Shown: positions 1,112-50,030 of the stretch, piece by piece | How positions within the stretch are numbered: position 1 is the stretch's first letter | How the letters are laid out: every line of letters begins with the position of its first letter | Sequence record: MH816966 | Source: Escherichia phage FEC19 | Strand: one strand, 5' to 3' | Length of the DNA stretch: 64,000 nt | Position numbers and translations under genes: made by a program | The notes under the pieces: model-generated | Database searches by the model: none | What the model saw: the letters and a program-made list of their open reading frames with translations, nothing else | What the model was told of the DNA's origin: nothing

Positions 1112-1410
1112 TTCCCTCCAAACGTTGCAACACGGATGTCGCGACGCGAAAAAGTCAGAACAGTGTCAAGGCTGCCAGCACAGGTTATGAATATATCGTC
1201 TGCAACAAGGTCATACCCGCCGACGCAAAGAATAAATGTGTCATCGCTATTCTTTAATAGCATGATTGCTGCAACACCGTCCTTTTTATTCTTAAAGAAG
1301 AATACTGGCTCACCGCCTTCTTGCGTCTCCTTGAACTCTTTAATTGCACCACAGTTCACGGCTTCTTGCAAAGCATTCAAAACCTTTTTCTTCATTGCTT
1401 CGTTACTCAT
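1108..1410 (-). CDS. hypothetical protein (100 aa)
   Basis: Start refined to ATG at 1410 (MSNEAMKKK) preceded by AAGGAG; the longer ORF-track start lacks an RBS. Confidence 0.5.
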   Translation of the reverse strand: MSNEAMKKKVLNALQEAVNCGAIKEFKETQEGGEPVFFFKNKKDGVAAIMLLKNSDDTFILCVGGYDLVADDIFITCAGSLDTVLTFSRRDIRVATFGGK

Positions 1411-1438
1411 AATCAATTCTCCTTTGCTTGATGAACTA

Positions 1439-1466
1439 AGTATAATACAGGCAAATAAAAAGGCAA
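1439..1466 (-). promoter_or_regulatory. sigma70-like promoter for 1108-1410
   Basis: Minus sense TTGCCT-16-TATACT; -35 lies inside the upstream terminator stem. Confidence 0.4.
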
Positions 1467-1485
1467 GCATTTAGCTCACCTTTTT
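1457..1485 (-). terminator. rho-independent terminator (copy 1 of a duplicated cassette)
   Basis: Minus-strand RNA 5'-AAAAA GGUGAGC UAAAU GCUUGCC UUUUU-3'; the stem uses G-U wobbles that pair only in the minus-sense transcript. Confidence 0.5.
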
Positions 1486-1488
1486 GAA

Positions 1489-1749
1489 TTAAATATTCTT
1501 CGCCTCTTCGTGGAGGCCGACCGACCTTAGTTTTCGTCGCAAGTAAGCTTTCTTTTCACTCTCCCGCCCGGCTGGAGTCACGCGCCAGCGTAATGTGTTC
1601 TCCAGATTCTTGCGTCGGTTGTGCTTGTCGAGTAGCTCTACCAGTGCCTTTGCGTCGTCGAGTGTTAATGCCACGGGCCGCGACCCATTAACGGCTTGTC
1701 GAAGCTTCCGCGCGGCAACGGCTAACTTAGTCATCGGACCTTTGTTCAC
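1489..1749 (-). CDS. hypothetical basic protein (86 aa)
   Basis: ORF followed directly by a hairpin terminator; Arg/Lys-rich, possible nucleic-acid binder. Confidence 0.45.
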   Translation of the reverse strand: MNKGPMTKLAVAARKLRQAVNGSRPVALTLDDAKALVELLDKHNRRKNLENTLRWRVTPAGRESEKKAYLRRKLRSVGLHEEAKNI

Positions 1750-2648: not shown

Positions 2649-2944
2649 GATTCACTAGCCTTGAATCCCCAGCCTTCCAGACCGACTTCGCCGCAGTAAC
2701 GCGCCATTGCACGCTCATCCAAGAACCAACCGTGATATTGCTCTATGTACTTTGGTTTTTCTGAATAACAGTGAATGACTCCGTCGTCATCAATGGCCAC
2801 GTAACGCGTGCCAGGCGCGACTGGTACAACTACGTTTGGGTGGACGATTGGCCAAGGCTTGATGTGTACGGCTGTGTCTAACTTAACGTTTGGCACCCTT
2901 GAAAGGTCTTTGTAAGCGCCCTCGTCCATTCCTAAGTAAATCAT
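2627..2944 (-). CDS. hypothetical protein (105 aa)
   Basis: ATG at 2944 preceded by GAGGTGA; downstream of the duplicated promoter/terminator cassette. Confidence 0.5.
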   Translation of the reverse strand: MIYLGMDEGAYKDLSRVPNVKLDTAVHIKPWPIVHPNVVVPVAPGTRYVAIDDDGVIHCYSEKPKYIEQYHGWFLDERAMARYCGEVGLEGWGFKASESCVEVQL

Positions 2945-2976
2945 AATTCACCTCGCTTGTTAGTCTTGATGAAAAG

Positions 2977-3005
2977 AGTATAAGTATTGATAAAAGAAAA
3001 GGCAA
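2977..3005 (-). promoter_or_regulatory. sigma70-like promoter for 2627-2944
   Basis: Minus sense TTGCCT-17-TATACT; duplicate of the 1439-1466 arrangement. Confidence 0.4.
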
Positions 3006-3024
3006 GCATTTAGCTCACCTTTTT
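2996..3024 (-). terminator. rho-independent terminator (copy 2 of the duplicated cassette)
   Basis: Same 30-bp sequence AAAAGGCAAGCATTTAGCTCACCTTTTTGA as at 1459-1488. Confidence 0.5.
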
Positions 3025-3029
3025 GATAT

Positions 3030-3362
3030 TCATTTTACATAGTGGAGTAGGTCAATCTCTATCTCGTGCCTTGTCCTTGTTATCTTTGTATCACCCGTCC
3101 TGTGGGAGACTTGATGGAAGAAAGAGTCTTTGTGAGCGCATCGTTCAAACATCACGCTGGCAAATCTGCAGCCGCATATTGCATCAAGCTTTGCTCCGTT
3201 AGACAAAAGGTTGAATGTCAATACAGTGTTATCCATCCTTGCATTTTGCTTGATGCAGGACTTTAAGAAGGCGTAAGAATCGGCAAATGATTTGTGCCTT
3301 TTACAAATATCTTTAACCTTTTCACGCTCATGCGCGGCGAGTATCTGATCACGTGTCATCAC
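3030..3362 (-). CDS. hypothetical protein (110 aa)
   Basis: ORF in operon context, followed by the terminator at about 2996-3024. Confidence 0.45.
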   Translation of the reverse strand: MMTRDQILAAHEREKVKDICKRHKSFADSYAFLKSCIKQNARMDNTVLTFNLLSNGAKLDAICGCRFASVMFERCAHKDSFFHQVSHRTGDTKITRTRHEIEIDLLHYVK

Positions 3363-4791: not shown

Positions 4792-5070
4792 TCACTTATA
4801 GTATTTAAACATAGCCGCGCAAAAATCCTGCATGGCATTCTTAATTTGCTTCTTGAACAACGGGTCATGCATCGTTTCAACATTCGTCTTAATCCGAACG
4901 TGACCGATAACATCAAACGCAGTTGCTGGCATCGGCTCATAGATTTCATGATCGTTCAAGATTATATCTAGTCTTGACTCAGAAATCACGGGATAATTCT
5001 TTCCAGCAGTAAACTGGTCATCAATCGATAACGTGCACTTGACAAAGAATACTTTGTATGTAGTAATCAT
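4792..5070 (-). CDS. hypothetical protein (92 aa)
   Basis: Intact ORF in the early array. Confidence 0.45.
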   Translation of the reverse strand: MITTYKVFFVKCTLSIDDQFTAGKNYPVISESRLDIILNDHEIYEPMPATAFDVIGHVRIKTNVETMHDPLFKKQIKNAMQDFCAAMFKYYK

Positions 5071-5276
5071 AGTGAGTCCTTCGGGCCGCAGTAGCGCCCG
5101 TCCAGGTAGCGGTCGTATTGGATTAAAGCGAATGTTTTCAACGAAAGGTTACGGCGCTTAAACAGGTGACCAGTTGATGGATTCTGCTCGTGCGCCGTTG
5201 GATAAAGGCGTGTCAGGTAGTGGATGAGGACTTGTAAAGCTCTACGTTGCTTTGTTATTCTCCCTTGTGTATTCAT
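5067..5276 (-). CDS. hypothetical basic protein (69 aa)
   Basis: ORF with 4-nt overlap downstream; weak RBS. Confidence 0.35.
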   Translation of the reverse strand: MNTQGRITKQRRALQVLIHYLTRLYPTAHEQNPSTGHLFKRRNLSLKTFALIQYDRYLDGRYCGPKDSL

Positions 5277-11886: not shown

Positions 11887-12045
11887 TGTTGACGTAAATT
11901 TACGAAAAATAAAACTGAAAATCAGTTTAATTAAAGTGGCATCGCCGCCAGAGTTTTTAGTTGCTACTGGCGGCGACTGAAGGCATAATTAAGTTATCCC
12001 AAACGGGGAATATAAAATAAACTAATTTATTTAAGGACTGTGAAT

Positions 12046-12885
12046 ATGGCCGAAGCAATCAAAGTATTATCTAAAGAAGAAAAACAAGCAGCTGCAGCAG
12101 AACGTCGTCGCGTGGCTGAAGAAAAACGCCTGGCTAAAAAGAAAGAAGCCGAAGAAAAACGCCAGAAGCGTGAGCAGGAAAAACAAGCCAAGCGTGAAGA
12201 AGCTGCGCTGAAACGCAAGCAGGCTGCTGATGAGAAGGCTCAGAAGCGTGCTGAAGAAGCAGCGAAGAAAGCCAAAGAGCGTGCAGAAAAGGCTGCTGCT
12301 AAGAAAGCAGAGCGTGAAGCCGCTAAAGCAGCAAAAGAAATCGAAAAGGCAAAGGCTAAAGAAGAAGCCAAGCGCCTGAAAGCTGAACAAGCTGCTGCTA
12401 AGAAAGCAGAGCGTGATCAAGCCCGTGCTGCAGCGAAGGCCGAAAAAGAGAAGGCCAAAGAAGAAGCTAAAGCGAAACGCAAGGCAGAGCGTGAAGCTGC
12501 TAAGATTGCGGCTAAAGAAGCTGCAGAAAAGCAGAAAGAACAGCGTAAGAAAGAAGCTGAAGAACGTCGCAAAGCCATCGCAGAACGTAAGGCTGCTAAA
12601 AAGGCAAACGGTCAGCGTCGTGCAAAAGCAACCCACTTCATCTACACTGGCAATGGCCTGAGCCAGCCGCAAGAGCATTCCACCCGTGGACGCGTTCTGG
12701 CGGCGATCAAAGAAGGCGAAGTTGGCGTGGCGCAGTCTATCGATGAGCTGGGCGAAAAAGTTAAAGATCAACTGTTTGGCGCTTCCGTTCGCTCCTACCT
12801 GAGCAAGCTGGAAGAGATGGGCCACATCGAGTTTGTCGATGTTGAATCCAACGAAGATGCCGAAGACGGTGATCAAGCGGAATAA
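12046..12885 (+). CDS. Lys/Glu/Ala-rich low-complexity protein with globular C-terminal domain
   Basis: About 200 aa of KAKEEAK/AEEKR repeats then an ordinary-composition C-terminal domain; ATG at 12046 with AAGGA RBS preferred over the GTG at 12040. Confidence 0.6.
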   Translation: MAEAIKVLSKEEKQAAAAERRRVAEEKRLAKKKEAEEKRQKREQEKQAKREEAALKRKQAADEKAQKRAEEAAKKAKERAEKAAAKKAEREAAKAAKEIEKAKAKEEAKRLKAEQAAAKKAERDQARAAAKAEKEKAKEEAKAKRKAEREAAKIAAKEAAEKQKEQRKKEAEERRKAIAERKAAKKANGQRRAKATHFIYTGNGLSQPQEHSTRGRVLAAIKEGEVGVAQSIDELGEKVKDQLFGASVRSYLSKLEEMGHIEFVDVESNEDAEDGDQAE

Positions 12886-12964: not shown

Positions 12965-12993
12965 TTGCTGTAAAATAATTTAGCTATTATACT
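12965..12993 (+). promoter_or_regulatory. sigma70-like promoter
   Basis: TTGCTG-17-TATACT upstream of 13018. Confidence 0.45.
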
Positions 12994-13017
12994 TCTCATA
13001 TCACCCACAAAGGACAA

Positions 13018-14013
13018 ATGAACATGAAACAACCTGTAATGATTATCGGCGGCGGACTGGCAGGACTTATCACCGCGTGTCACTTCCCGAACTCTGTTGT
13101 GTACGAAGCAGGGGAACGAGCGCAACAGCACAAGGCGCTGCTACGCTTTCGCAGCGAAGAAGTAAGCCGTATTACCGGAATCCCTTTTAAGGCCGTGACA
13201 GTTGACAAGGCTGTGTATTTTCGCGGCAACTACTATCACGACCATTGCCCAATCAACCTTGCCAATATGTATTCCATGAAGGTCACCAATCAATTTGGCA
13301 GCCGTTCAATCATGAAGCTTAAGACTGCAACGCGTTATATTGCGCCTGATGACTTTTATGATCAGCTTGTCGACAAACTGGGTGACCGCATATTCTTTGA
13401 TACTCCGGTTGATACTCTTTGCGGCTATAGCGAGACGCCAATCATCAACACGTCGCCGCTGCCAGTAATGATGAAGCTTGCTGGGATTGATCAAAAGCTT
13501 GATTTCTCATTTGATAAAGCAAACATTCGCGTTTACCGCTTTAAGATTAAACGTAAGTGTGATTTGTATCAGACAATTTACTTCCCTGACTACTCCGTCA
13601 GAACTTACCGCGCATCAATTACTGGTGACACGCTTATCATTGAAACAATTCCTTTGGTCAGCGTGAGTGAAGCTGCAGTTGAAGCCGCTGGCGGCATCAC
13701 TCGTTACCGTGACATGAAGCTGCGCGCAGAAGTCGACGAAGTGTTGACAGCCTTTGGCCTCTCATGGAGTGACATTGCTCTTGAAGAAGTTGAAAAGGTC
13801 GACCAGAAATATGGCAAGATTGTCGACATTCCGAAAGACTTGCGACACGCCCTACTCCTGCAGCTGACTATGGATTTGAACGTGTTCAGTGTCGGTCGAT
13901 TTGCTACCTGGCGCAACATTTTGCTTGATGACGTTGCCCATGACCTTGTTGAAGTTGAAAAACTCATCAAAGCAAATAACTATCAAAAATTTGCTTATAT
14001 TGCTAATAAATAA
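13018..14013 (+). CDS. FAD/NAD(P)-binding Rossmann-fold oxidoreductase (possibly UDP-galactopyranose-mutase-like)
   Basis: N-terminal VMIIGGGLAGLITA (GxGxxG); C-terminal VGRFATWRNILLDDV resembles the conserved C-terminal motif of flavin mutase/amine-oxidase-like enzymes. Confidence 0.6.
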   Translation: MNMKQPVMIIGGGLAGLITACHFPNSVVYEAGERAQQHKALLRFRSEEVSRITGIPFKAVTVDKAVYFRGNYYHDHCPINLANMYSMKVTNQFGSRSIMKLKTATRYIAPDDFYDQLVDKLGDRIFFDTPVDTLCGYSETPIINTSPLPVMMKLAGIDQKLDFSFDKANIRVYRFKIKRKCDLYQTIYFPDYSVRTYRASITGDTLIIETIPLVSVSEAAVEAAGGITRYRDMKLRAEVDEVLTAFGLSWSDIALEEVEKVDQKYGKIVDIPKDLRHALLLQLTMDLNVFSVGRFATWRNILLDDVAHDLVEVEKLIKANNYQKFAYIANK

Positions 14014-14014
14014 T

Positions 14015-14043
14015 TTGCTTTCTGCTTCAATGGGCGTATACTT
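14015..14043 (+). promoter_or_regulatory. sigma70-like promoter with -10 inside a palindrome loop
   Basis: TTTGCT-17-TATACT; the -10 lies between 11-bp arms CTGCTTCAATG and CATTGAAGCAG. Confidence 0.45.
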
Positions 14044-14078
14044 TAATCATTGAAGCAGAACTCATAGAGGAAACGAAA

Positions 14079-14525
14079 ATGAAACGAATCACTGGAATCG
14101 CGCTTGCCGCTACTGCTATTCTCGGCACCATGTATATGGAAGCGACTGAAGCTGCCATCCGTACTTCCGATTCAATCGCTGTTTACGATTGCGAAGCGAT
14201 GGACGGCAAGACCTCAGCAACGACTGGTGCAAAGATTACCACTTACATCGGTGTGAACGAGCAAGAAGGTCTGAATATTCAGATTCAAGGATTCACAGGG
14301 AAAGGTACCAACCGTACTCCGTGGATGCAACGTTTCACTTTCGTCCAACCTCGTTCAACTGGCGACTTTATCAATCTGATTGGTGAAAACCGTTCTGGTG
14401 CAGAAATCTTTACATCAATGAGTTCTAATAATGAACCAAAGAAAAGTTTTCAGTTGCTTTATAACGCACAATTCGTTTATCATTGCACCTTCTCTGGTGA
14501 TCAGCAACTAGTGAATTACCGTTAA
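14079..14525 (+). CDS. secreted protein with signal peptide
   Basis: N-terminal MKRITGIALAATAILGTMYMEA hydrophobic signal-like segment; two Cys in the mature part. Confidence 0.5.
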   Translation: MKRITGIALAATAILGTMYMEATEAAIRTSDSIAVYDCEAMDGKTSATTGAKITTYIGVNEQEGLNIQIQGFTGKGTNRTPWMQRFTFVQPRSTGDFINLIGENRSGAEIFTSMSSNNEPKKSFQLLYNAQFVYHCTFSGDQQLVNYR

Positions 14526-14538
14526 TAGGATAATTAAA

Positions 14539-15369
14539 ATGAAAGTTGAATTAATTCGATACACCCAAGATGCACTTGACCTTTTGCTGGAAACAAAGAA
14601 CACGCGCATGACTGGTAAGCCTGTCTCTGAGATGACGGAATCAGAGAAGCAAGAGCATTGGCGCTACATGCTTGATACAATCAAGTCGCCTTTTGACTTT
14701 GTGGACTATATCTTTGACATCACCGATGTTTCAAAGAATATGACCCATCAGATGGTGCGCACACGCACAGGCGCATATCAAGAACGCACCAGCCGCGCTC
14801 AGGAGTCGTCTGCATTTGATGCGATTCGTCCGAAGGCATTCTCACACCAAAATCCAGAGTTGATTGATCAATGTGAAGCATTTGGGACTGATGAAGAGCA
14901 CCAGTCTTTACTTCAAAAGCAATACTTAGCAGAGAAGTGGGATGATGCGATGGCGACTATCGATGTTTTGTATCAAGAGCTTCGCGCGGCTGGCGCAGAG
15001 ATTCAAGATGCACGTGCCGTGTTGCCTTCTAATATGCAAACGCATATCATGGCAAAGTTCAACTTGCGCACGCTGCAACAGATGGCGTCAAACCGCTTGT
15101 GCACGCGCACTCAAGGCGAGTATCAAGAAGTATTCCGCGCGATGGTTGCTGAAGTCCTCAAGGTGCACCCGTGGGCAAATCCATTATTACAGCCGCAATG
15201 CATCGGTATGGGTAAATGCGCGTTTCCTCGTCATGGCAAAGCCCATTGCCCTTGGTATCGTGATTGGATGGATACCACGGCACAGCAAGAAGAGTTGCGC
15301 ATCCAGTTTTGGAGTGCGATGCCAATCACCAACAATCCAGTTGCTAAAGATGGAGTATCAAAAGGATGA
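14539..15369 (+). CDS. flavin-dependent thymidylate synthase (ThyX)-like protein, noncanonical motif
   Basis: VRTRTGAYQERTS aligns to the ThyX RHR-x7-S region and ARAVLPSNMQTHIMAKFNLRTLQQMASNR to the ThyX helix [29 protein letters not shown] (recalled from memory). Confidence 0.55.
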   Translation: MKVELIRYTQDALDLLLETKNTRMTGKPVSEMTESEKQEHWRYMLDTIKSPFDFVDYIFDITDVSKNMTHQMVRTRTGAYQERTSRAQESSAFDAIRPKAFSHQNPELIDQCEAFGTDEEHQSLLQKQYLAEKWDDAMATIDVLYQELRAAGAEIQDARAVLPSNMQTHIMAKFNLRTLQQMASNRLCTRTQGEYQEVFRAMVAEVLKVHPWANPLLQPQCIGMGKCAFPRHGKAHCPWYRDWMDTTAQQEELRIQFWSAMPITNNPVAKDGVSKG

Positions 15370-16238
15370 GCATTAAAAACAGCGAAATCTTAAACGTATT
15401 CGACCTTGACGGAACGCTGTTTGATGACCGTTGGCGCTTAGACCGCATCAAGGTGGCAGGTCCGTTGTCAGACTATGATGACTATCACAGCGGTATTGGT
15501 TATGATCAGTTCTATCCTCACATTGCATCAGCAGTAGAGTCGGCATCTCTTCGCGGTGAGGCGGTTGAATATTGGACTGCAAGGCCAGAAAAATACAGAC
15601 AAGTGACTTTTGAACGTCTGGATAATGTTTTTCCTTTTGATGAATTTACAATCAAGATGAGAGACTATGGCGACAAACGTCCATCAACTATTATGAAATC
15701 TGCATGGCTATCGCACGCATTGCGGCACGGCGATTATCGAATCATCAATGTATTCGACGACCGACAAGACGTACTCGCGCGGATGCAAGATGAAGCATTG
15801 TATTATAATTCCGTTGCTCAAAATAAAATCGCTTTTACATTTAATCTTTGCAAGGCAGGTGAAGTGGTGCAACAATTAGCAATTGATCCAAGCGCAACAG
15901 GGCAAGAAGAGACTAAGGCTGTGGAAGTTGAACAATCTCCGGCAACTGCCGCCGATATTCTTGATGCAATGGCAGCAACCTTCCGTGAGCGCAACGCTGT
16001 CTATGGTGATAACGCTGTGATGGTAGGTCAGGTTATGCAAGTGCTTTTCCCTAATGGCGTGACGTTGAAAACGCCGGAAGACTACCACATGTGGCATCTG
16101 TTCGAGCTTAAGATTGTCAAGCTTACACGCTTCGCAATCAGCGGCCTGAAGCACGAAGACTCTATACACGATGATGGTGTTTACAGCGCCATGTGTGAAC
16201 GTCTTGTTAACGCCCATAATATTAATTTCAATAAATAG
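15366..16238 (+). CDS. HAD-superfamily phosphatase fused to a C-terminal domain of unknown function
   Basis: HAD motif I FDLDGTLF plus downstream T, K and DD motifs; C-terminal about 120 aa with RERNAVYGDNAVMVGQVMQVLFPNG of unknown affiliation. Confidence 0.6.
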   Translation: MSIKNSEILNVFDLDGTLFDDRWRLDRIKVAGPLSDYDDYHSGIGYDQFYPHIASAVESASLRGEAVEYWTARPEKYRQVTFERLDNVFPFDEFTIKMRDYGDKRPSTIMKSAWLSHALRHGDYRIINVFDDRQDVLARMQDEALYYNSVAQNKIAFTFNLCKAGEVVQQLAIDPSATGQEETKAVEVEQSPATAADILDAMAATFRERNAVYGDNAVMVGQVMQVLFPNGVTLKTPEDYHMWHLFELKIVKLTRFAISGLKHEDSIHDDGVYSAMCERLVNAHNINFNK

Positions 16239-16268
16239 TTTACTTGTGCGTTTCGATGAGTTATATTT
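16239..16268 (+). promoter_or_regulatory. sigma70-like promoter with -10 inside a palindrome loop
   Basis: TTTACT-18-TATATT; the -10 lies between 12-bp arms CGTTTCGATGAG and CTCATCGAAACG. Confidence 0.45.
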
Positions 16269-16303
16269 ATCTCATCGAAACGAAGTCCAAAAAGGATAAA
16301 TAA

Positions 16304-16990: not shown

Positions 16991-17161
16991 ATGACTATCA
17001 AAGTTGTTGTAGAAGTGATTGGCGACGTGGCAGAAGTGAAGATTGATCAAGAAGGCGTTGGATTTGAAGTAATAAGAATCGAAAACGCAAAGATTAACCA
17101 CGAGCGCGTCGGTTCAATTGAGACTTATTCCATAGAAGGCAACACAGTAATTAATCAATAA
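16991..17161 (+). CDS. small hypothetical protein (56 aa)
   Basis: Not in the ORF track; fills the SDR-to-VOC gap; weak RBS. Confidence 0.25.
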   Translation: MTIKVVVEVIGDVAEVKIDQEGVGFEVIRIENAKINHERVGSIETYSIEGNTVINQ

Positions 17162-23169: not shown

Positions 23170-23198
23170 TTGACTTGTCACGGAAGATGAGTCATAAT
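23170..23198 (+). promoter_or_regulatory. sigma70-like promoter
   Basis: TTGACT-17-CATAAT followed by the TCATCGAAACGAA leader motif also seen at 16271-16284. Confidence 0.5.
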
Positions 23199-23230
23199 TA
23201 CTTCATCGAAACGAAATAGAGGAATACAAA

Positions 23231-34568: not shown

Positions 34569-35293
34569 TCTATCATATTCCCAGTTCTGTTTCCAGGCCC
34601 GTTACCGATATGCCCGTGAGTGGATACATCAATGCCGCCGACCGTTGTGCCAGTCGGAAGCGTTGCCGTCGTTCCTTCTTTGCCTTCTATCCCACCATTG
34701 AATGTTGCTTTTCCATTTACTATCAATTGTTGATCGATAGTGGTTATCGGGGTCTTGACGTTTACTCCAGCAGACGCAGTTATGTTTATTGAGTCATCGC
34801 TTAGTGCAATTCTCACAGCGCCGCTGAGGGATTGAATTACCATTGACCCCGCATCCTCTCCGCTTATGGTGTATTTTCGGAATACATCCGGTATGAACAG
34901 TCCATCAGCGAAAGTTTTTACACGGCCATTGGTAGGCGCGGTCGGCTTCAATTCTTCAAGGAATGTCGACAACTCGCGGTCGCCAGCGAATATCCAGCCC
35001 AAGTCGCCTTCCTTCAAAGGGAAGTTGATCACGAATCCGCCGCCGCCGATTGCCAGTACCGGAATTGACACCAAAGGTTGACGCTCCACTGGCTTATCAT
35101 CAAGACTTACGAAATGAATAACAGGTTTTATGACTGCTAAATTTTTCTTGCGGTCATAAGATATTACTTGCGCAGGAATCATGCCATCAGTGGTATACTT
35201 GCCACGGTCCAGCATTCCCTGAAGCGCGGCAAACATACTTGATTTGTCAGTTTGGTTGGGGCTTGTAAGTTGGGTTAACTTTTCTGCCATCAT
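34565..35293 (-). CDS. baseplate spike/assembly protein (gpV-like)
   Basis: N-terminal OB-like segment then Gly-rich C-terminus ending GHIGNGPGNRTGNMIE; AAGGAG RBS. Confidence 0.5.
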   Translation of the reverse strand: MMAEKLTQLTSPNQTDKSSMFAALQGMLDRGKYTTDGMIPAQVISYDRKKNLAVIKPVIHFVSLDDKPVERQPLVSIPVLAIGGGGFVINFPLKEGDLGWIFAGDRELSTFLEELKPTAPTNGRVKTFADGLFIPDVFRKYTISGEDAGSMVIQSLSGAVRIALSDDSINITASAGVNVKTPITTIDQQLIVNGKATFNGGIEGKEGTTATLPTGTTVGGIDVSTHGHIGNGPGNRTGNMIE

Positions 35294-35350
35294 AGACTCC
35301 TTATATCTGATCAACAAATTATAATCTATAAGGAGTCTATAAGCAATATT

Positions 35351-39353: not shown

Positions 39354-39914
39354 TTATATTCCTACTGTTGATTTTATTTTATTATATAACGAACTCACAG
39401 TTGTAGTCAAACTGACTGGCTCTTTAATAGCCACGCCATTTGACGATTCATCTGCGGACTGTTTAGGGTCAAAGCTTCCTTGAATACTAAATGACGTCTG
39501 TTCAAATGTTATTACAATTGAGACTCCATTCAGGTTTTCTTCTGACTGAGTTATTTCGACATCAGACATCGACATTTTGCTTGCAATTATGCTTCGAGAA
39601 GTTATTGAAAATGTGACTTCATCATTGTCGAATGTATTAATTATGTTTTCAATAGTCGATTGGTCGTTGCAAATTACGTTTAGCGCCATGTGCGCTGGCA
39701 TTATTACTTTTGCCGCCTGTAGATTGCTTACTGAGGATGTACTTGATACTTCCACCACCTGCATCGCCGTTCCAGCAATTGGAAATTGAGTAGTTTCTGC
39801 TGGTGATGTTATTTCTGCAGACACTGGAGAAAGCCTTGTCCAGACAGGAAGCCCTGTCGACTCATTCGTTATGGTCAGAGATTGACCAGAAAGCAGAATC
39901 GAAACAAAGTCCAT
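39354..39914 (-). CDS. tail-associated hypothetical protein
   Basis: ORF packed in the tail operon. Confidence 0.45.
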   Translation of the reverse strand: MDFVSILLSGQSLTITNESTGLPVWTRLSPVSAEITSPAETTQFPIAGTAMQVVEVSSTSSVSNLQAAKVIMPAHMALNVICNDQSTIENIINTFDNDEVTFSITSRSIIASKMSMSDVEITQSEENLNGVSIVITFEQTSFSIQGSFDPKQSADESSNGVAIKEPVSLTTTVSSLYNKIKSTVGI

Positions 39915-48237: not shown

Positions 48238-49656
48238 TTATTCCCCTTTCAACCAAGCTTCAAACGCTTCGTCAGTTGCTGCAGAATCCGCAGCGGCCTT
48301 TTGTTTTGCGACTACACGCTGTTTTTGACCGTGTTCAACGCCGCGCAGATAATTATCCACCACGTCAAACTCAGCACCATCAACGCACTTCAAGCCTAAC
48401 TTTTTAGCGCCATATTTCGCTACGGACTTGGAGTCCATAGTTGCATGATCAAAGGCACCAACAACTTTAGACAGGCGCTGGTAGAGGCTATTCTTACGAG
48501 CAGAATCAGCGTAGAAAGCAGCAACTGCTGAATCAGATGCCATTGAGTGTTCCCCTTTTGCTGGACCTGGCGACGCTTTCGCCGCTTTTGTCGGTTTGTC
48601 ATCTTTTTCGACCGAAGCCCCCTTTACGTTGCTGTTTTGCAGGCCGCTAACCACATCTTCAGCTTTGTCGCAAGGTGATACATCTTCAGCCTTGACTTCA
48701 ACTTCTTCGTCTTTGACTTCGGCTTCAACTTCTTCTTCATCACCTACCGCGCCACCTTTCAGTTTTGCAATAAGTGCTTCGATTTGGCTGATCAGTTGCG
48801 GAAGCTCGCCGCCAGCGTGAGATTCAGTTTCAACTTCAAACTTCTCTTCACCTTCTGGAGTCTCTTCAGCTTCTGCTTTGACTTCTGGATCAACCATCAC
48901 TTCTTCACGTTCTTCGGTTGAATCCTTCTCTTCTGCTTTCACTTCAACTTCGTCCTGATGAGCAGCTTCGGTGCTCTCTTCATTCAGAAATTGTTCGAGC
49001 GCAGGGATCAGTGACTTCAGCTGTTCAACAGCATTATCACGCGCTTTACCTTTTAACGGTTTTGGCATGTCTAAATCCTCGTTGGATGGTGTTACAGTCG
49101 TCAAACAAAGATGGTCAAAGCAACGACCATCCAGCACCCGTGCACCTGGTACTCGACCAACGTCCACGAGAGCAATGTGGTTGCCGCGAAGAGTTGTCTG
49201 TACCACTTCATACGGCTGCCCGTCAAACTCTCCAGACTGTATGATGAATTCACAGTCATAGCCCAAAGACAAGTCAACCTTTCCAGAATCGATGGCTTTC
49301 TTCAGACGACGGCTAAAAACTTTAAGGTCGCCGCGCATCCATGGCTTGTCATAATAAACATTGCCAGTTAGAACGCCATCAACGCCATACTCTTCGGGTG
49401 CTGTGTTATCCTCATCACCTTCGAATCCAGAAAGCATTTCGTGATTGTCGATGAAAGGGATATTTTTGAATGAATCTATCGCTTCGGGGTCTTTCACCGC
49501 TGACTCTGGGCGATAAACTTTTACGATGCGATTCGGATCACCATCAAGTCCAACCTGACCTGCAGAATAATCAAAAATGCCAAATGACGAAATGGGACAA
49601 CCCACAATCGTCAAGAATCCATTTTTGTCAATTTCGCGTGCCGTTTGCATTCGCAT
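48238..49656 (-). CDS. prohead protease/scaffolding-like protein
   Basis: Globular N-terminal about 180 aa followed by a long acidic Glu/Val/Lys-rich helical region (EEVEAEVKDEEVEVKAED). Confidence 0.55.
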   Translation of the reverse strand: MRMQTAREIDKNGFLTIVGCPISSFGIFDYSAGQVGLDGDPNRIVKVYRPESAVKDPEAIDSFKNIPFIDNHEMLSGFEGDEDNTAPEEYGVDGVLTGNVYYDKPWMRGDLKVFSRRLKKAIDSGKVDLSLGYDCEFIIQSGEFDGQPYEVVQTTLRGNHIALVDVGRVPGARVLDGRCFDHLCLTTVTPSNEDLDMPKPLKGKARDNAVEQLKSLIPALEQFLNEESTEAAHQDEVEVKAEEKDSTEEREEVMVDPEVKAEAEETPEGEEKFEVETESHAGGELPQLISQIEALIAKLKGGAVGDEEEVEAEVKDEEVEVKAEDVSPCDKAEDVVSGLQNSNVKGASVEKDDKPTKAAKASPGPAKGEHSMASDSAVAAFYADSARKNSLYQRLSKVVGAFDHATMDSKSVAKYGAKKLGLKCVDGAEFDVVDNYLRGVEHGQKQRVVAKQKAAADSAATDEAFEAWLKGE

Positions 49657-49744: not shown

Positions 49745-50030
49745 ATAGCCGCGCCTTAATTAGTGTGATACGGATGATACGGATAAAATGAGGCGTATTT
49801 TTATCCGTATCGGTGTATAAGCCGCGCTATCACTGGTGTGCTACGGATGATACGGATGATACGGATACTTTTCATATATAAGAGTTTATAAAAAAAATAA
49901 AATTAAATTAGATATATAATTTTAAATTAATTTATTTGAATTCCTATAAAGTATCGCGGCAACGCGTATCATCCGTATCATCCGTAAGATTCTTTTGAAA
50001 ACAACTACTTACTTGATACGGATGATACGT
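49745..50030. repeat. iteron-like 9-bp repeat array flanking an AT-rich core
   Basis: GATACGGAT units, direct at 49767-49784, 49843-49868 and 50015-50029 and inverted at 49803-49811 and 49967-49987, around an 80-bp core of over 80% A+T (49869-49950). Confidence 0.7.

What the first reader, a model, noticed from the sequence alone, without database searches (positions are those of the whole stretch)
14023..14059. Perfect 11-bp palindrome straddling a promoter -10 element
CTGCTTCAATG and CATTGAAGCAG flank a 15-bp loop that contains the TATACT -10 of the promoter for 14079. Arms this long placed symmetrically around the -10 are typical of an operator for a dimeric regulator. Because it straddles the predicted transcription start, it is unlikely to be an RNA terminator.
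Basis: seen in the sequence. Interest (0 to 1): 0.5.

Follow-up and report, generated by a model that had tools for sequence, protein, structure and literature searches.

The report
Promoter-embedded stem-loop cassette in a coliphage
The palindrome is real and strongly conserved, but it looks like the stem-loop half of a compact promoter-plus-hairpin cassette that this phage family places between genes, a design already described in T4-like phages, and not like a repressor binding site.

Summary
The window is a Wifcevirus, a ~68 kb E. coli myovirus. The inverted repeat is real and longer than reported. It has perfect 13-bp arms (14020-14032 and 14048-14060) and a 15-nt loop holding TATACT (14037-14042). 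Perfect repeats of this arm length occur 5 times in the window, against 0.08 in shuffles. The hairpin is invariant in 12 wifceviruses, although 18% of neighbouring columns vary.

The promoter reading is supported. The motif ATAHT-N4-TCATYRA occurs 5 times (0.09 expected), each time upstream of a gene. The orthologous promoter of Pseudomonas phage 14-1 has an experimentally mapped sigma70-type start at the A of TCAT. By homology the start here is A14049, inside the right arm.

The operator reading is not supported:
- The four promoter palindromes in the window have unrelated arms.
- The paralogous cassette at 16239-16303 keeps its pairing through compensatory changes.
- The same promoter in Myosmarvirus and Kylevirus carries different hairpins at shifted positions.
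- The right arm is a start-site box shared by unrelated phages.

Hairpins or canonical terminators accompany 9 of 13 promoters that receive read-through and 0 of 5 that do not. The best reading is a PeSL-like composite promoter/stem-loop boundary element. Its RNA-level role is inferred, not shown.

The parts
13957..14013 (+). AT-rich (80% A+T) invariant stretch upstream of the -35. It is the 3' end of the UGM-like CDS, including its stop codon TAA at 14011-14013.
   Evidence: One search gives the composition (window mean 54% A+T). One search shows a single variable column in 13957-14075 across 12 wifceviruses.
14014..14019 (+). -35 element TTTGCT (TTGCTT if read one base later). It matches the family consensus GCTTTACT/TTTGCT.
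   Evidence: It aligns with TTTACT of 14-1 promoter P028 and with other mapped 14-1 sigma70 promoters.
14020..14032 (+). Left arm TTCTGCTTCAATG. It occupies the first 13 nt of the 17-nt promoter spacer.
14033..14047 (+). Loop GGCGTATACTTTAAT, 15 nt.
14037..14042 (+). -10 element TATACT.
   Evidence: GGGCGTATACT aligns with GGGCGTAATAT of 14-1 P028.
14048..14060 (+). Right arm CATTGAAGCAGAA. It is part of the start-site box TCATTGAAGCAGAA (14047-14060), a variant of TCATCGAAACGAA.
14049..14049 (+). Predicted transcription start (the A of TCAT), inferred by homology and not measured in this phage.
   Evidence: The 14-1 P028 start at 49234(-) is the equivalent A, mapped by ONT-cappable-seq (Table S3 of 10.1101/2023.10.13.562163). 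Coordinates were converted from L037.
14066..14071 (+). Shine-Dalgarno AGAGGA, 6 nt after the stem and outside the hairpin.
   Evidence: Its accessibility is similar in read-through RNA and in the promoter's own RNA.
14079..14525 (+). Downstream gene: a 148-aa ORFan with a hydrophobic, signal-peptide-like N-terminus, found only in Wifcevirus.
   Evidence: 27 records, all Wifcevirus; no Pfam match; no similarity to the gene in the same slot of phage Kyle.
16239..16303 (+). Paralogous cassette before the SDR/FabG-like gene: TTTACT-17-TATATT, with perfect 12-bp arms at 16249-16260 and 16271-16282 around the -10.
   Evidence: (z = -5.8).
23170..23230 (+). Paralogous cassette TTGACT-17-CATAAT-TACT-TCATCGAAACGAA. 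Its hairpin is imperfect (14 bp, two G.U pairs, one bulge) and spans the -35 to the -10.
   Evidence: (z = -2.2).
35292..35340 (-). Same architecture on the other strand: TTGCTT-17-TATAAT with perfect 14-bp arms around the -10. The right arm contains the AAGGAG ribosome-binding site of the gene starting at 35290.
   Evidence: z = -5.7.
11942..11976 (+). Perfect 10-bp arms whose 15-nt loop holds the -35 (TTGCTA) of the promoter before ORF 12040.
   Evidence: z = -3.65. Bas98 has a T.G pair in this stem.
1408..1495 (-). Composite canonical terminator plus promoter with the TCATCAAG box. A near-duplicate lies at 2942-3032.
2942..3032 (-). Second copy of the composite terminator/promoter cassette.

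Best explanation
The inverted repeat is the stem-loop component of a composite promoter/stem-loop/ribosome-binding-site cassette that fills the whole 65-nt gap between two co-directional genes.

The promoter is -35 TTTGCT, 17-nt spacer, -10 TATACT, with the start at about A14049. Host sigma70 RNA polymerase uses it to express the genus-specific ORFan at 14079. Its own transcripts begin inside the right arm and cannot form the hairpin.

The hairpin can form only in RNA that reads through from the upstream UGM-like gene. There it most likely marks a transcript boundary. It could attenuate or pause incoming transcription, or leave a stable 3' stem that protects the upstream message, so that the downstream gene depends on its own promoter.

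Shown: the palindrome, its conservation, the promoter family, the homology to a mapped start site, and the turnover of hairpins at orthologous promoters. Inferred: that the pairing acts in sense-strand RNA, and what it does there.
For: Promoter:
- ATAHT-N4-TCATYRA occurs 5 times against 0.09 expected, always intergenic and co-oriented with a gene.
- The three + strand copies align over about 75 nt at 77% column identity.
- The orthologous 14-1 promoter P028 has a mapped sigma70-type start at the equivalent A. Other 14-1 promoters of this class drive GFP in E. coli.

Pairing rather than sequence is conserved:
- P14079 and P16304 share the core GYTTCRATG...CATYGAARC. They differ at three pairs, each changed on both sides, and each has its own extra pairs.
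- The SDR-gene promoter has a 12-bp stem around the -10 in Wifcevirus, GGCCA-AGGA-TGGCC in the spacer in Myosmarvirus, and ACGCCTCTT/AAGGGGCGT (Kyle) or ACGCCGTA/TACGGCGT (PA1) in Kylevirus, followed by a U-rich tail.
- More distant relatives have no intergenic gap, promoter or hairpin at that site.

Link to incoming transcription:
- 9 of 13 compact promoters that receive co-directional read-through carry a stable embedded hairpin or an adjacent or overlapping canonical terminator. None of 5 promoters in divergent gaps does. Fisher one-sided p is about 0.015, post hoc.
- In 14-1 a mapped terminator (T004) sits 24 nt upstream of a mapped start (P009) that has the same box.

Constraint: 0 of 41 hairpin columns vary, against 18% overall, including the spacer arm that promoter function alone would not constrain.

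Precedent: the PeSLs of T4-type phages have the same layout, and one of their stem-loops terminated transcription in vivo.
Against: - No transcript data exist for any Wifcevirus.
- The hairpin is not a canonical intrinsic terminator. It has a 15-nt loop and the tail CUCAUAGAGG has no U tract. The same genome uses textbook terminators elsewhere (12913, 17750, 25000, 27204, 28078).
- All 49 pairs in the four wifcevirus palindromes are Watson-Crick, which fits DNA-level symmetry at least as well as RNA.
- An unbiased comparison of sense and antisense folding energy over 25 structured promoter windows gave 13 against 12. My hand count of 10 sense G.U against 2 A.C pairs is therefore ascertainment-biased and does not settle the strand.
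- The ribosome-binding site of ORF 14079 is not masked by this hairpin.
- The 14-1 ortholog works without any hairpin.
- The promoter list behind the context test rests on predictions.
Confidence: 0.5

Rival explanations
1. Operator: a dimeric or tetrameric phage regulator binds the two arms on duplex DNA and occludes the -10 and the start site, switching the promoter off or on during infection.
For: The site has perfect dyad symmetry centred on the -10, and every pair is Watson-Crick. The right arm is a conserved box, and P14079 and P16304 share a 9-bp core in both arms, so a single protein could in principle recognise these two sites. The genome does contain an obvious protein-site array elsewhere: GATACGGAT, 7 exact copies within 49767-50023.
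Against: - The four promoter palindromes have unrelated arms.
- The two related ones differ by symmetric compensatory changes, which half-site recognition does not predict.
- The box occurs as a single copy at three other promoters here and in unrelated phages (T1-like, T4-like, Pbunavirus) that would not share a regulator.
- Hairpins at orthologous promoters move and change sequence.
- The arm centres are 28 bp apart.
- No DNA-binding domain was found in 20 early proteins, and no regulator is annotated in Bas98.
Confidence: 0.1
2. DNA-level structure: the palindrome acts as a hairpin or cruciform in DNA. It might modulate the promoter with supercoiling, or serve as a preferred site for recombination between cassettes, as proposed for PeSLs.
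For: All pairs are Watson-Crick. The DNA fold gives -12.4 kcal/mol, z = -4.2. There is no strand asymmetry in folding energy. Some mapped 14-1 promoters have spacer palindromes with a 1-nt centre (CAGTCTGACTG, CATTCTGAATG) that cannot be RNA hairpins. The gene behind the 1410 cassette is replaced in Bas98 exactly at the cassette edge. The slot behind the UGM-like gene holds different ORFans in different genera.
Against: A 15-nt central spacer strongly disfavours cruciform extrusion (established knowledge of cruciform kinetics; not tested here). The association with read-through context and the interchangeability with canonical RNA terminators point to transcripts. No indel among the wifceviruses examined ends at this cassette.
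Confidence: 0.15
3. Transcript-origin switch: because the start lies between the arms, the structure exists only in read-through RNA, where it masks the 5' leader box. The gene would then be expressed efficiently only from its own promoter, following the logic of T4 gene e.
For: The sister element at 35292-35340 fits this exactly: the ribosome-binding site has unpaired probability 0.00 in read-through RNA and 0.85 in RNA from the predicted start. Cronobacter phage LPCS28 pairs the box with its ribosome-binding site. The T4 precedent is described in PMC3014915.
Against: At this site the ribosome-binding site lies outside the stem, and its accessibility hardly changes (0.36 against 0.50). No function is known for the leader box in RNA.
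Confidence: 0.1
4. No function of its own: a quasi-palindrome made perfect by templated (strand-switch) mutation and carried along by selection on the promoter.
For: The pairing is perfect with no wobble pairs. The 14-1 ortholog lacks a hairpin. The whole 119-nt region is conserved, not only the arms.
Against: Four such palindromes sit on promoters in one genome against about 0.1 expected. Independent hairpins occur on orthologous promoters in three genera, with compensatory turnover. The spacer arm is invariant across 12 genomes. Hairpins are restricted to promoters that receive read-through.
Confidence: 0.1

Closest known systems
PeSLs (promoter-early stem-loops), composite promoter/terminator cassettes of T4-type phages (Arbiol et al. 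2010, PMC2839356; Comeau et al. 2014, PMC4122927)
   Same: [quoted passage not shown] Both have an AT-rich region, a sigma70-like -35/-10, a stem-loop placed between the -35 and -10 or overlapping either box, and then a Shine-Dalgarno sequence and start codon. Both occur as several related copies per genome, often before ORFans and in variable slots.
   Different: The host phage is a ~68 kb Lindbergviridae-type myovirus, not a T4-type phage. The stems are A+T-rich with 10-21-nt loops, not polyG/polyC. The arms flank the start site. There is no U-rich tail, so terminator activity is doubtful. There are only about 5-10 copies. Cassette-mediated recombination was not demonstrated here.
Leader hairpins of T4 genes e, soc, 49 and I-TevI, with a promoter between the arms (Uzan & Miller 2010, PMC3014915; McPheeters et al. 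1986, cited there)
   Same: The promoter's start lies inside a hairpin, so only RNA coming from upstream can fold it and the promoter's own RNA escapes.
   Different: In T4 the 3' arm sequesters the ribosome-binding site and the promoters are late (gp55) promoters. Here the ribosome-binding site is outside the stem and the promoter is sigma70-type. The sister element at 35292-35340 does match the T4 design.
Sigma70-type promoters of Pbunavirus 14-1 mapped by ONT-cappable-seq (Putzeys et al. 2024, PMC10914365), especially P028 and the T004/P009 terminator-promoter pair
   Same: P028 is the positional and sequence ortholog: it follows the UGM-like gene, with TTTACT-17-TAATAT-TCCC-TCATCGAAACG. 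The start is at the A of TCAT. P009 has the same box 24 nt after a mapped intrinsic terminator.
   Different: P028 has no inverted repeat. The left arm is a Wifcevirus innovation.
Classical palindromic operators overlapping a -10 element (for example LexA or phage repressor sites)
   Same: Dyad symmetry centred on core promoter elements.
   Different: Operators are short half-sites one to two helical turns apart, and they repeat at co-regulated promoters. Here 13-bp arms lie 28 bp apart centre to centre, the sequences are unique to each promoter, and variation is compensatory.
Rho-independent terminators
   Same: A stable stem-loop at the end of a gene. At equivalent positions the same genome uses true terminators.
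   Different: The loop is 15 nt instead of 3-8, the stem has only 5 of 13 G-C pairs, and there is no U tract. The terminator scan did not detect it.

Membership tests
PeSL (composite promoter/stem-loop cassette) | Sigma70-like -35 and -10 with an AT-rich region upstream that contains the upstream stop codon | tested here: met
   TTTGCT-17-TATACT. The 54 nt upstream are 80% A+T, and the stop codon TAA abuts the -35. There is homology to a mapped sigma70 promoter.
PeSL (composite promoter/stem-loop cassette) | Stem-loop between or overlapping the -35/-10 boxes | tested here: met
   13-bp arms in the spacer and at -1 to +12, with the -10 in the loop.
PeSL (composite promoter/stem-loop cassette) | Shine-Dalgarno sequence and start codon at the 3' end; the cassette spans the whole intergenic gap | tested here: met
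   AGAGGA at 14066-14071, ATG at 14079, 65-nt gap.
PeSL (composite promoter/stem-loop cassette) | Repeated, sequence-related copies in one genome | tested here: met
   5 copies of the -10 plus box motif against 0.09 expected. Three copies align at 77% and six at 63% column identity.
PeSL (composite promoter/stem-loop cassette) | Association with ORFans and variable regions; indels bounded by cassettes | tested here: inconclusive
   The downstream gene is a genus-specific ORFan, and the slot varies between genera. One gene replacement in Bas98 starts at the 1410 cassette. No indel ends at this cassette, and other indels are not cassette-bounded.
PeSL (composite promoter/stem-loop cassette) | The stem-loop terminates or attenuates upstream transcription | not testable with these tools
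   The sequence lacks a U tract. Kylevirus orthologs do have one.
PeSL (composite promoter/stem-loop cassette) | Found in T4-type (Straboviridae) genomes | tested here: not met
   The window is a Wifcevirus, related to Pbunavirus. It is therefore a functional analogue outside the group in which PeSLs were defined.
Operator for a dimeric regulator | The same recognition sequence recurs at co-regulated promoters | tested here: not met
   The arms of the four promoter palindromes are unrelated. Near-matches to the arm elsewhere lie inside coding sequence and are not palindromic.
Operator for a dimeric regulator | Half-sites vary independently, with no pairing-preserving covariation | tested here: not met
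   P14079 and P16304 differ at three pairs changed on both sides. Kyle versus PA1 and Kyle versus Myosmarvirus stems are likewise compensatory.
Operator for a dimeric regulator | A cognate DNA-binding protein is encoded nearby | tested here: inconclusive
   No Pfam DNA-binding domain in 20 early ORFs and none annotated in Bas98. Most proteins are of unknown function.
Rho-independent terminator | G+C-rich stem, 3-8-nt loop, U tract directly after the stem | tested here: not met
   5 of 13 G-C pairs, 15-nt loop, tail CTCATAGAGG; absent from the terminator scan.
T4 gene e-type leader hairpin | The 3' arm sequesters the ribosome-binding site, and the promoter start lies between the arms | tested here: not met
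   The start lies between the arms, but the ribosome-binding site is outside the stem and its accessibility is 0.36 against 0.50. The feature is met by the sister element at 35292-35340.
Curated RNA families (Rfam 15) | A match at or above the gathering score | tested here: not met
   No hit in the window. Only sub-threshold chance hits occur around the site.

The most novel reading that the evidence does not exclude
Start-site-straddling palindromes would be a general phage device for making RNA structure depend on where a transcript began. The left arm lies upstream of the start, so only read-through RNA folds. This insulates internal genes from upstream transcription, by attenuation at some sites and by masking the ribosome-binding site or leader at others. 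The device would be built on a previously undescribed start-site box (CTCATCGAAACGAA) shared by sigma70-type promoters of Pbunavirus, Wifcevirus, T1-like, T4-like and unclassified phages.
Probability: 0.25. Interest if true: 0.65.

Novelty: new member of a known kind. Interest (0 to 1): 0.42.

Why it matters
Wifceviruses and their Pbunavirus relatives are candidates for phage therapy, and their gene regulation is almost unstudied. Finding that their internal promoters come as compact promoter-plus-hairpin cassettes extends a design known only from T4-type phages to a second, unrelated myovirus lineage.

The finding gives concrete, testable start sites and transcript boundaries for annotation. 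It also warns against reading every promoter palindrome as an operator.

The side observation may be of wider use. A 14-nt start-site box is shared by early promoters of very different phages. If it reflects optimised promoter escape or a leader function, it would be relevant for promoter engineering.

Tried and rejected
- Covariation within Wifcevirus: the cassette is identical in 12 genomes and 2 metagenome contigs, so it is uninformative.
- Strand test by wobble pairs: the hand tally favoured the sense strand (10 against 2). An unbiased sense/antisense energy comparison was 13 against 12, so I dropped it as evidence.
- Masking of the ribosome-binding site of ORF 14079 by the hairpin: not seen.
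- Canonical terminator on either strand: no U tract directly after the stem on either strand.
- RNase III site: a 13-bp stem is short of the roughly two helical turns usually needed (established knowledge; not tested).
- Phage N4-type hairpin promoter: wrong stem and loop size, and no virion RNA polymerase.
- T4 MotA box: TTTGCTTTC resembles TTTGCTTTA, but it sits about 3 bp too far upstream. It matches the -35 of the mapped 14-1 sigma70 promoters instead.
- Extra copies of the arm: the 9 near-matches (2 or fewer mismatches) are all inside coding sequence and are likely codon-driven.
- Homology between ORF 14079 and the equally long Kyle gene in the same slot: none.
- Rfam: nothing.
- Literature: no promoter or transcript data for Wifcevirus, and no paper containing the box sequence.

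Full report
**What the window is.** Megablast of 13000-16000 finds 27 phage records at 94-99% identity, all Wifcevirus (E. coli/Shigella myoviruses of about 68 kb, such as WFH, ECML-117 and Bas98-101). The site lies in a block of + strand replication and nucleotide-metabolism genes. It sits between a 331-aa gene (13018-14013) and a 148-aa ORF (14079-14525), followed by thyX. Some records annotate the 331-aa gene as UDP-galactopyranose-mutase-like, and it is conserved in Pbunavirus, Myosmarvirus and Kylevirus.

**The observation.** The sequence is TTCTGCTTCAATG / GGCGTATACTTTAAT / CATTGAAGCAGAA at 14020-14032 / 14033-14047 / 14048-14060. TATACT is at 14037-14042 in the loop.
- Perfect inverted repeats with arms of at least 13 nt occur on 5 axes in the window, against a mean of 0.08 in 100 dinucleotide shuffles.
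- The 65-nt intergenic RNA folds at -19.1 kcal/mol, z = -3.4. As DNA it folds at -12.4 kcal/mol, z = -4.2.
- In an alignment of 12 wifceviruses, 18% of 3001 columns vary. None of the 41 hairpin columns varies, and only one column varies in 13957-14075.
- Two metagenome contigs carry the identical cassette.

**It is a promoter.** The generic scan missed it because the -35 is only a 3-of-6 match. The phage has its own recurrent pattern, TTTGCT/TTGCTT/TTTACT-N16-17-TATAMT, followed 14-25 nt later by a Shine-Dalgarno sequence and a start codon.
- The motif ATAHT-N4-TCATYRA occurs five times (1428-, 2966-, 14038+, 16263+, 23194+) against 0.09 expected. Every copy is intergenic and co-oriented with the next gene.
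- In Pseudomonas phage 14-1, the gap after the orthologous gene reads GCTTTACT-TCTGGATCAGGTGGGCG-TAATAT-TCCC-TCATCGAAACG.
- ONT-cappable-seq mapped a sigma70-type start, P028, at 49234(-). That position is exactly the A of TCAT (Table S3 of 10.1101/2023.10.13.562163).
- Other 14-1 promoters of this class were active in E. coli reporters.

By homology the start here is A14049, the second base of the right arm. This is inferred, because no Wifcevirus transcript data exist.

**It is one of a family of promoter-embedded hairpins.** Eight perfect inverted repeats with arms of at least 10 nt and loops of 3-45 nt were listed. Four of them sit on predicted promoters:
- 11942-11976, with the -35 in the loop.
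- 14020-14060, this site, with the -10 in the loop.
- 16249-16282, with the -10 in the loop, before the SDR/FabG-like gene.
- 35292-35340 on the - strand, with the -10 in the loop and the ribosome-binding site in the right arm.

Their arms are unrelated in sequence, except that P14079 and P16304 share a core. These two gaps are both 65 nt and align in register. The arms compare as follows:
- P14079: GCTTCAATG...CATTGAAGC.
- P16304: GTTTCGATG...CATCGAAAC.
- Two core pairs and one adjacent pair are changed on both sides.
- Each stem has private extensions: three outer pairs in P14079 and two inner pairs in P16304.

A third paralog (23170-23230) has the same right-hand box but a different, imperfect hairpin from the -35 to the -10. 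Two early-region cassettes on the - strand (1408-1495 and 2942-3032) combine a textbook terminator, whose 3' arm carries the -35, with the same -10 and box.

**Relatives show turnover of the hairpin on a conserved promoter.** The promoter before the SDR gene is recognisably orthologous in three genera, through a shared TATCTCATC...AACGAAG...AAAAGGA leader.
- Wifcevirus has the 12-bp stem around the -10.
- Seven Myosmarvirus genomes have GGCCA-AGGA-TGGCC inside the spacer.
- In Kylevirus, phage Kyle has ACGCCTCTT-CCA-AAGGGGCGT and PA1 has ACGCCGTA-GAAAA-TACGGCGT. Both overlap the -35 and are followed by a U-rich tail.
- More distant relatives have no gap, promoter or hairpin at that position.

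The Kyle cassette behind the UGM-like region shares TTGCTTTCTGCT with the window's cassette. Its spacer hairpin is GCTCA-AGGA-TGAGC, compensatory with respect to the Myosmarvirus GGCCA-AGGA-TGGCC. Phage 14-1 has no hairpin at P028. Selection therefore appears to maintain some hairpin on the promoter rather than a particular sequence or position. This is hard to reconcile with a sequence-specific operator.

- 20 sites have a -10 hexamer 3-4 nt upstream and a ribosome-binding site plus start codon within 40 nt. 16 of these also have a -35. About one such site would be expected by chance.
- They include five promoters in one 155-kb contig with no GenBank phage match, the T4-like Cronobacter phage LPCS28, the T1-like E. 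coli phage ESCO41 and pbunaviruses.
- In ESCO41 and in contig L091, a left arm in the spacer again pairs with the start of the box.

The Wifcevirus left arm thus evolved to complement a pre-existing, conserved initial transcribed sequence.

**Which molecule folds, and what for.** Compact promoters that receive co-directional read-through carry either a stable embedded hairpin (z of -2.1 or lower) or a canonical terminator within about 30 nt or overlapping the -35 in 9 of 13 cases. Promoters in divergent or non-transcribed gaps do so in 0 of 5 cases. Fisher one-sided p is about 0.015; the test is post hoc and rests on predicted promoters. In 14-1 a mapped terminator (T004, 6661) and a mapped start (P009, 6637) form just such a pair. 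No canonical terminator lies between the 12965-12993 promoter and this site, so the hairpin should be transcribed from upstream.

This links the hairpins to incoming transcription. It matches the PeSLs of T4-type phages, where the stem-loop lies between the -35 and -10 or overlaps either box. In one tested PeSL the stem-loop blocked read-through as well as rrnB T1.

The limits are real:
- This stem has a 15-nt loop and no U tract.
- All 49 pairs in the four wifcevirus palindromes are Watson-Crick.
- My hand count of wobble pairs (10 sense G.U against 2 A.C) was biased, because the hairpins were found with sense-strand folding.
- An unbiased sense/antisense energy comparison gave 13 against 12.
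- The hairpin does not mask the ribosome-binding site of ORF 14079 (0.36 against 0.50 unpaired). The sister element at 35292-35340 masks its site completely in read-through RNA only (0.00 against 0.85), which is the logic of T4 gene e (PMC3014915).

**Verdict.** The operator interpretation is not supported. The most likely identity is a PeSL-like composite promoter/stem-loop boundary cassette in a non-T4 lineage, that is, a new member of a known kind. I put confidence at about 0.5 that the pairing acts in read-through RNA. The remainder is split between DNA-level structure, a transcript-origin switch, an operator, and no function.

Noticed in passing
window 14047-14060, 16272-16284, 23203-23215; loci L077, L081, L091, L099, L102 and others: A start-site box, CTCATCGAAACGAA, sits directly after the -10 of sigma70-type promoters. 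It is shared by Wifcevirus, Pbunavirus 14-1 (mapped starts P028 and P009), a T1-like coliphage (ESCO41), a T4-like Cronobacter phage (LPCS28) and an unclassified 155-kb contig with five copies. 20 of 125 exact IMG/VR hits are in a clear promoter context. No paper containing the sequence was found.
   Followed up: partly
window 35292-35340 (- strand): A perfect 14-bp palindrome surrounds the -10 of TTGCTT-17-TATAAT, between a hypothetical gene and the baseplate-spike gene. The right arm contains the AAGGAG ribosome-binding site. That site is fully paired in read-through RNA (unpaired probability 0.00) and free (0.85) in RNA from the predicted start at 35311. This matches the T4 gene e design. 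It is identical in Bas98.
   Followed up: partly
window 49767-50029: An iteron-like cluster lies in a 565-nt non-coding region: 7 exact copies of GATACGGAT plus near-copies, forming two perfect inverted repeats (49776-49811, and 49965-50029 with 16-bp arms). It is conserved in Bas98 and is a candidate origin or regulator-binding array.
   Followed up: no
window 1408-1495 and 2942-3032 (- strand): Two near-identical composite cassettes lie 1.5 kb apart. Each has the canonical terminator AAAAAGGTGAGC-TAAAT-GCTTGCCTTTT, whose 3' arm carries the -35 TTGCCT, followed by TATACT, TCATCAAG, a Shine-Dalgarno sequence and ATG. The gene behind the 1410 copy is replaced by unrelated sequence in Bas98, starting a few codons after the ATG.
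   Followed up: partly
window 14079-14525; L010/L011 ~4993-5265; L029 3019-3946; L037 4536-5663: The slot between the UGM-like gene and thyX holds different small ORFans in each genus. Wifcevirus has a 148-aa signal-peptide-like protein, Myosmarvirus an 86-aa protein, Kyle two genes (PA1 lacks the first), and 14-1 five small ORFs. In each case the slot is entered through a promoter cassette.
   Followed up: partly
L010, L011, L028, L030-L033, about 130 nt upstream of the 'structural protein' gene: Myosmarvirus has its own -10-straddling inverted repeat: TGGGAATTC...GAATTCCCA around TAAAAT in one clade, and TTTGGGGAA...TTCCCCAAA in the other. The difference includes a matched G/C insertion in both arms.
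   Followed up: partly
14-1 promoters P001, P006, P024, P037 (Table S3 of 10.1101/2023.10.13.562163): Several experimentally mapped 14-1 sigma70 promoters have short spacer palindromes with a 0-1-nt centre: CAGTCTGACTG, CATTCTGAATG, AGTTGCAACT and CTGCGCAG. These cannot be RNA hairpins. P001 and P006 differ by a symmetric change. This is unexplained and keeps a DNA-level reading open.
   Followed up: no
window 12040-12885: A 281-aa protein is made almost entirely of a low-complexity K/E/A-rich repeat (annotated TolA-like in some relatives). A long spurious ORF lies on the opposite strand.
   Followed up: no
window ~17135-17142 versus Bas98 39470-39676: Bas98 carries a 207-bp insertion encoding an extra small membrane-like ORF (Bas98_0047). 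It is inserted between direct repeats of the sequence ...AGAAGGCAA / GACAACACAGTAATTAATCAATAA.... It is not bounded by a promoter cassette.
   Followed up: no
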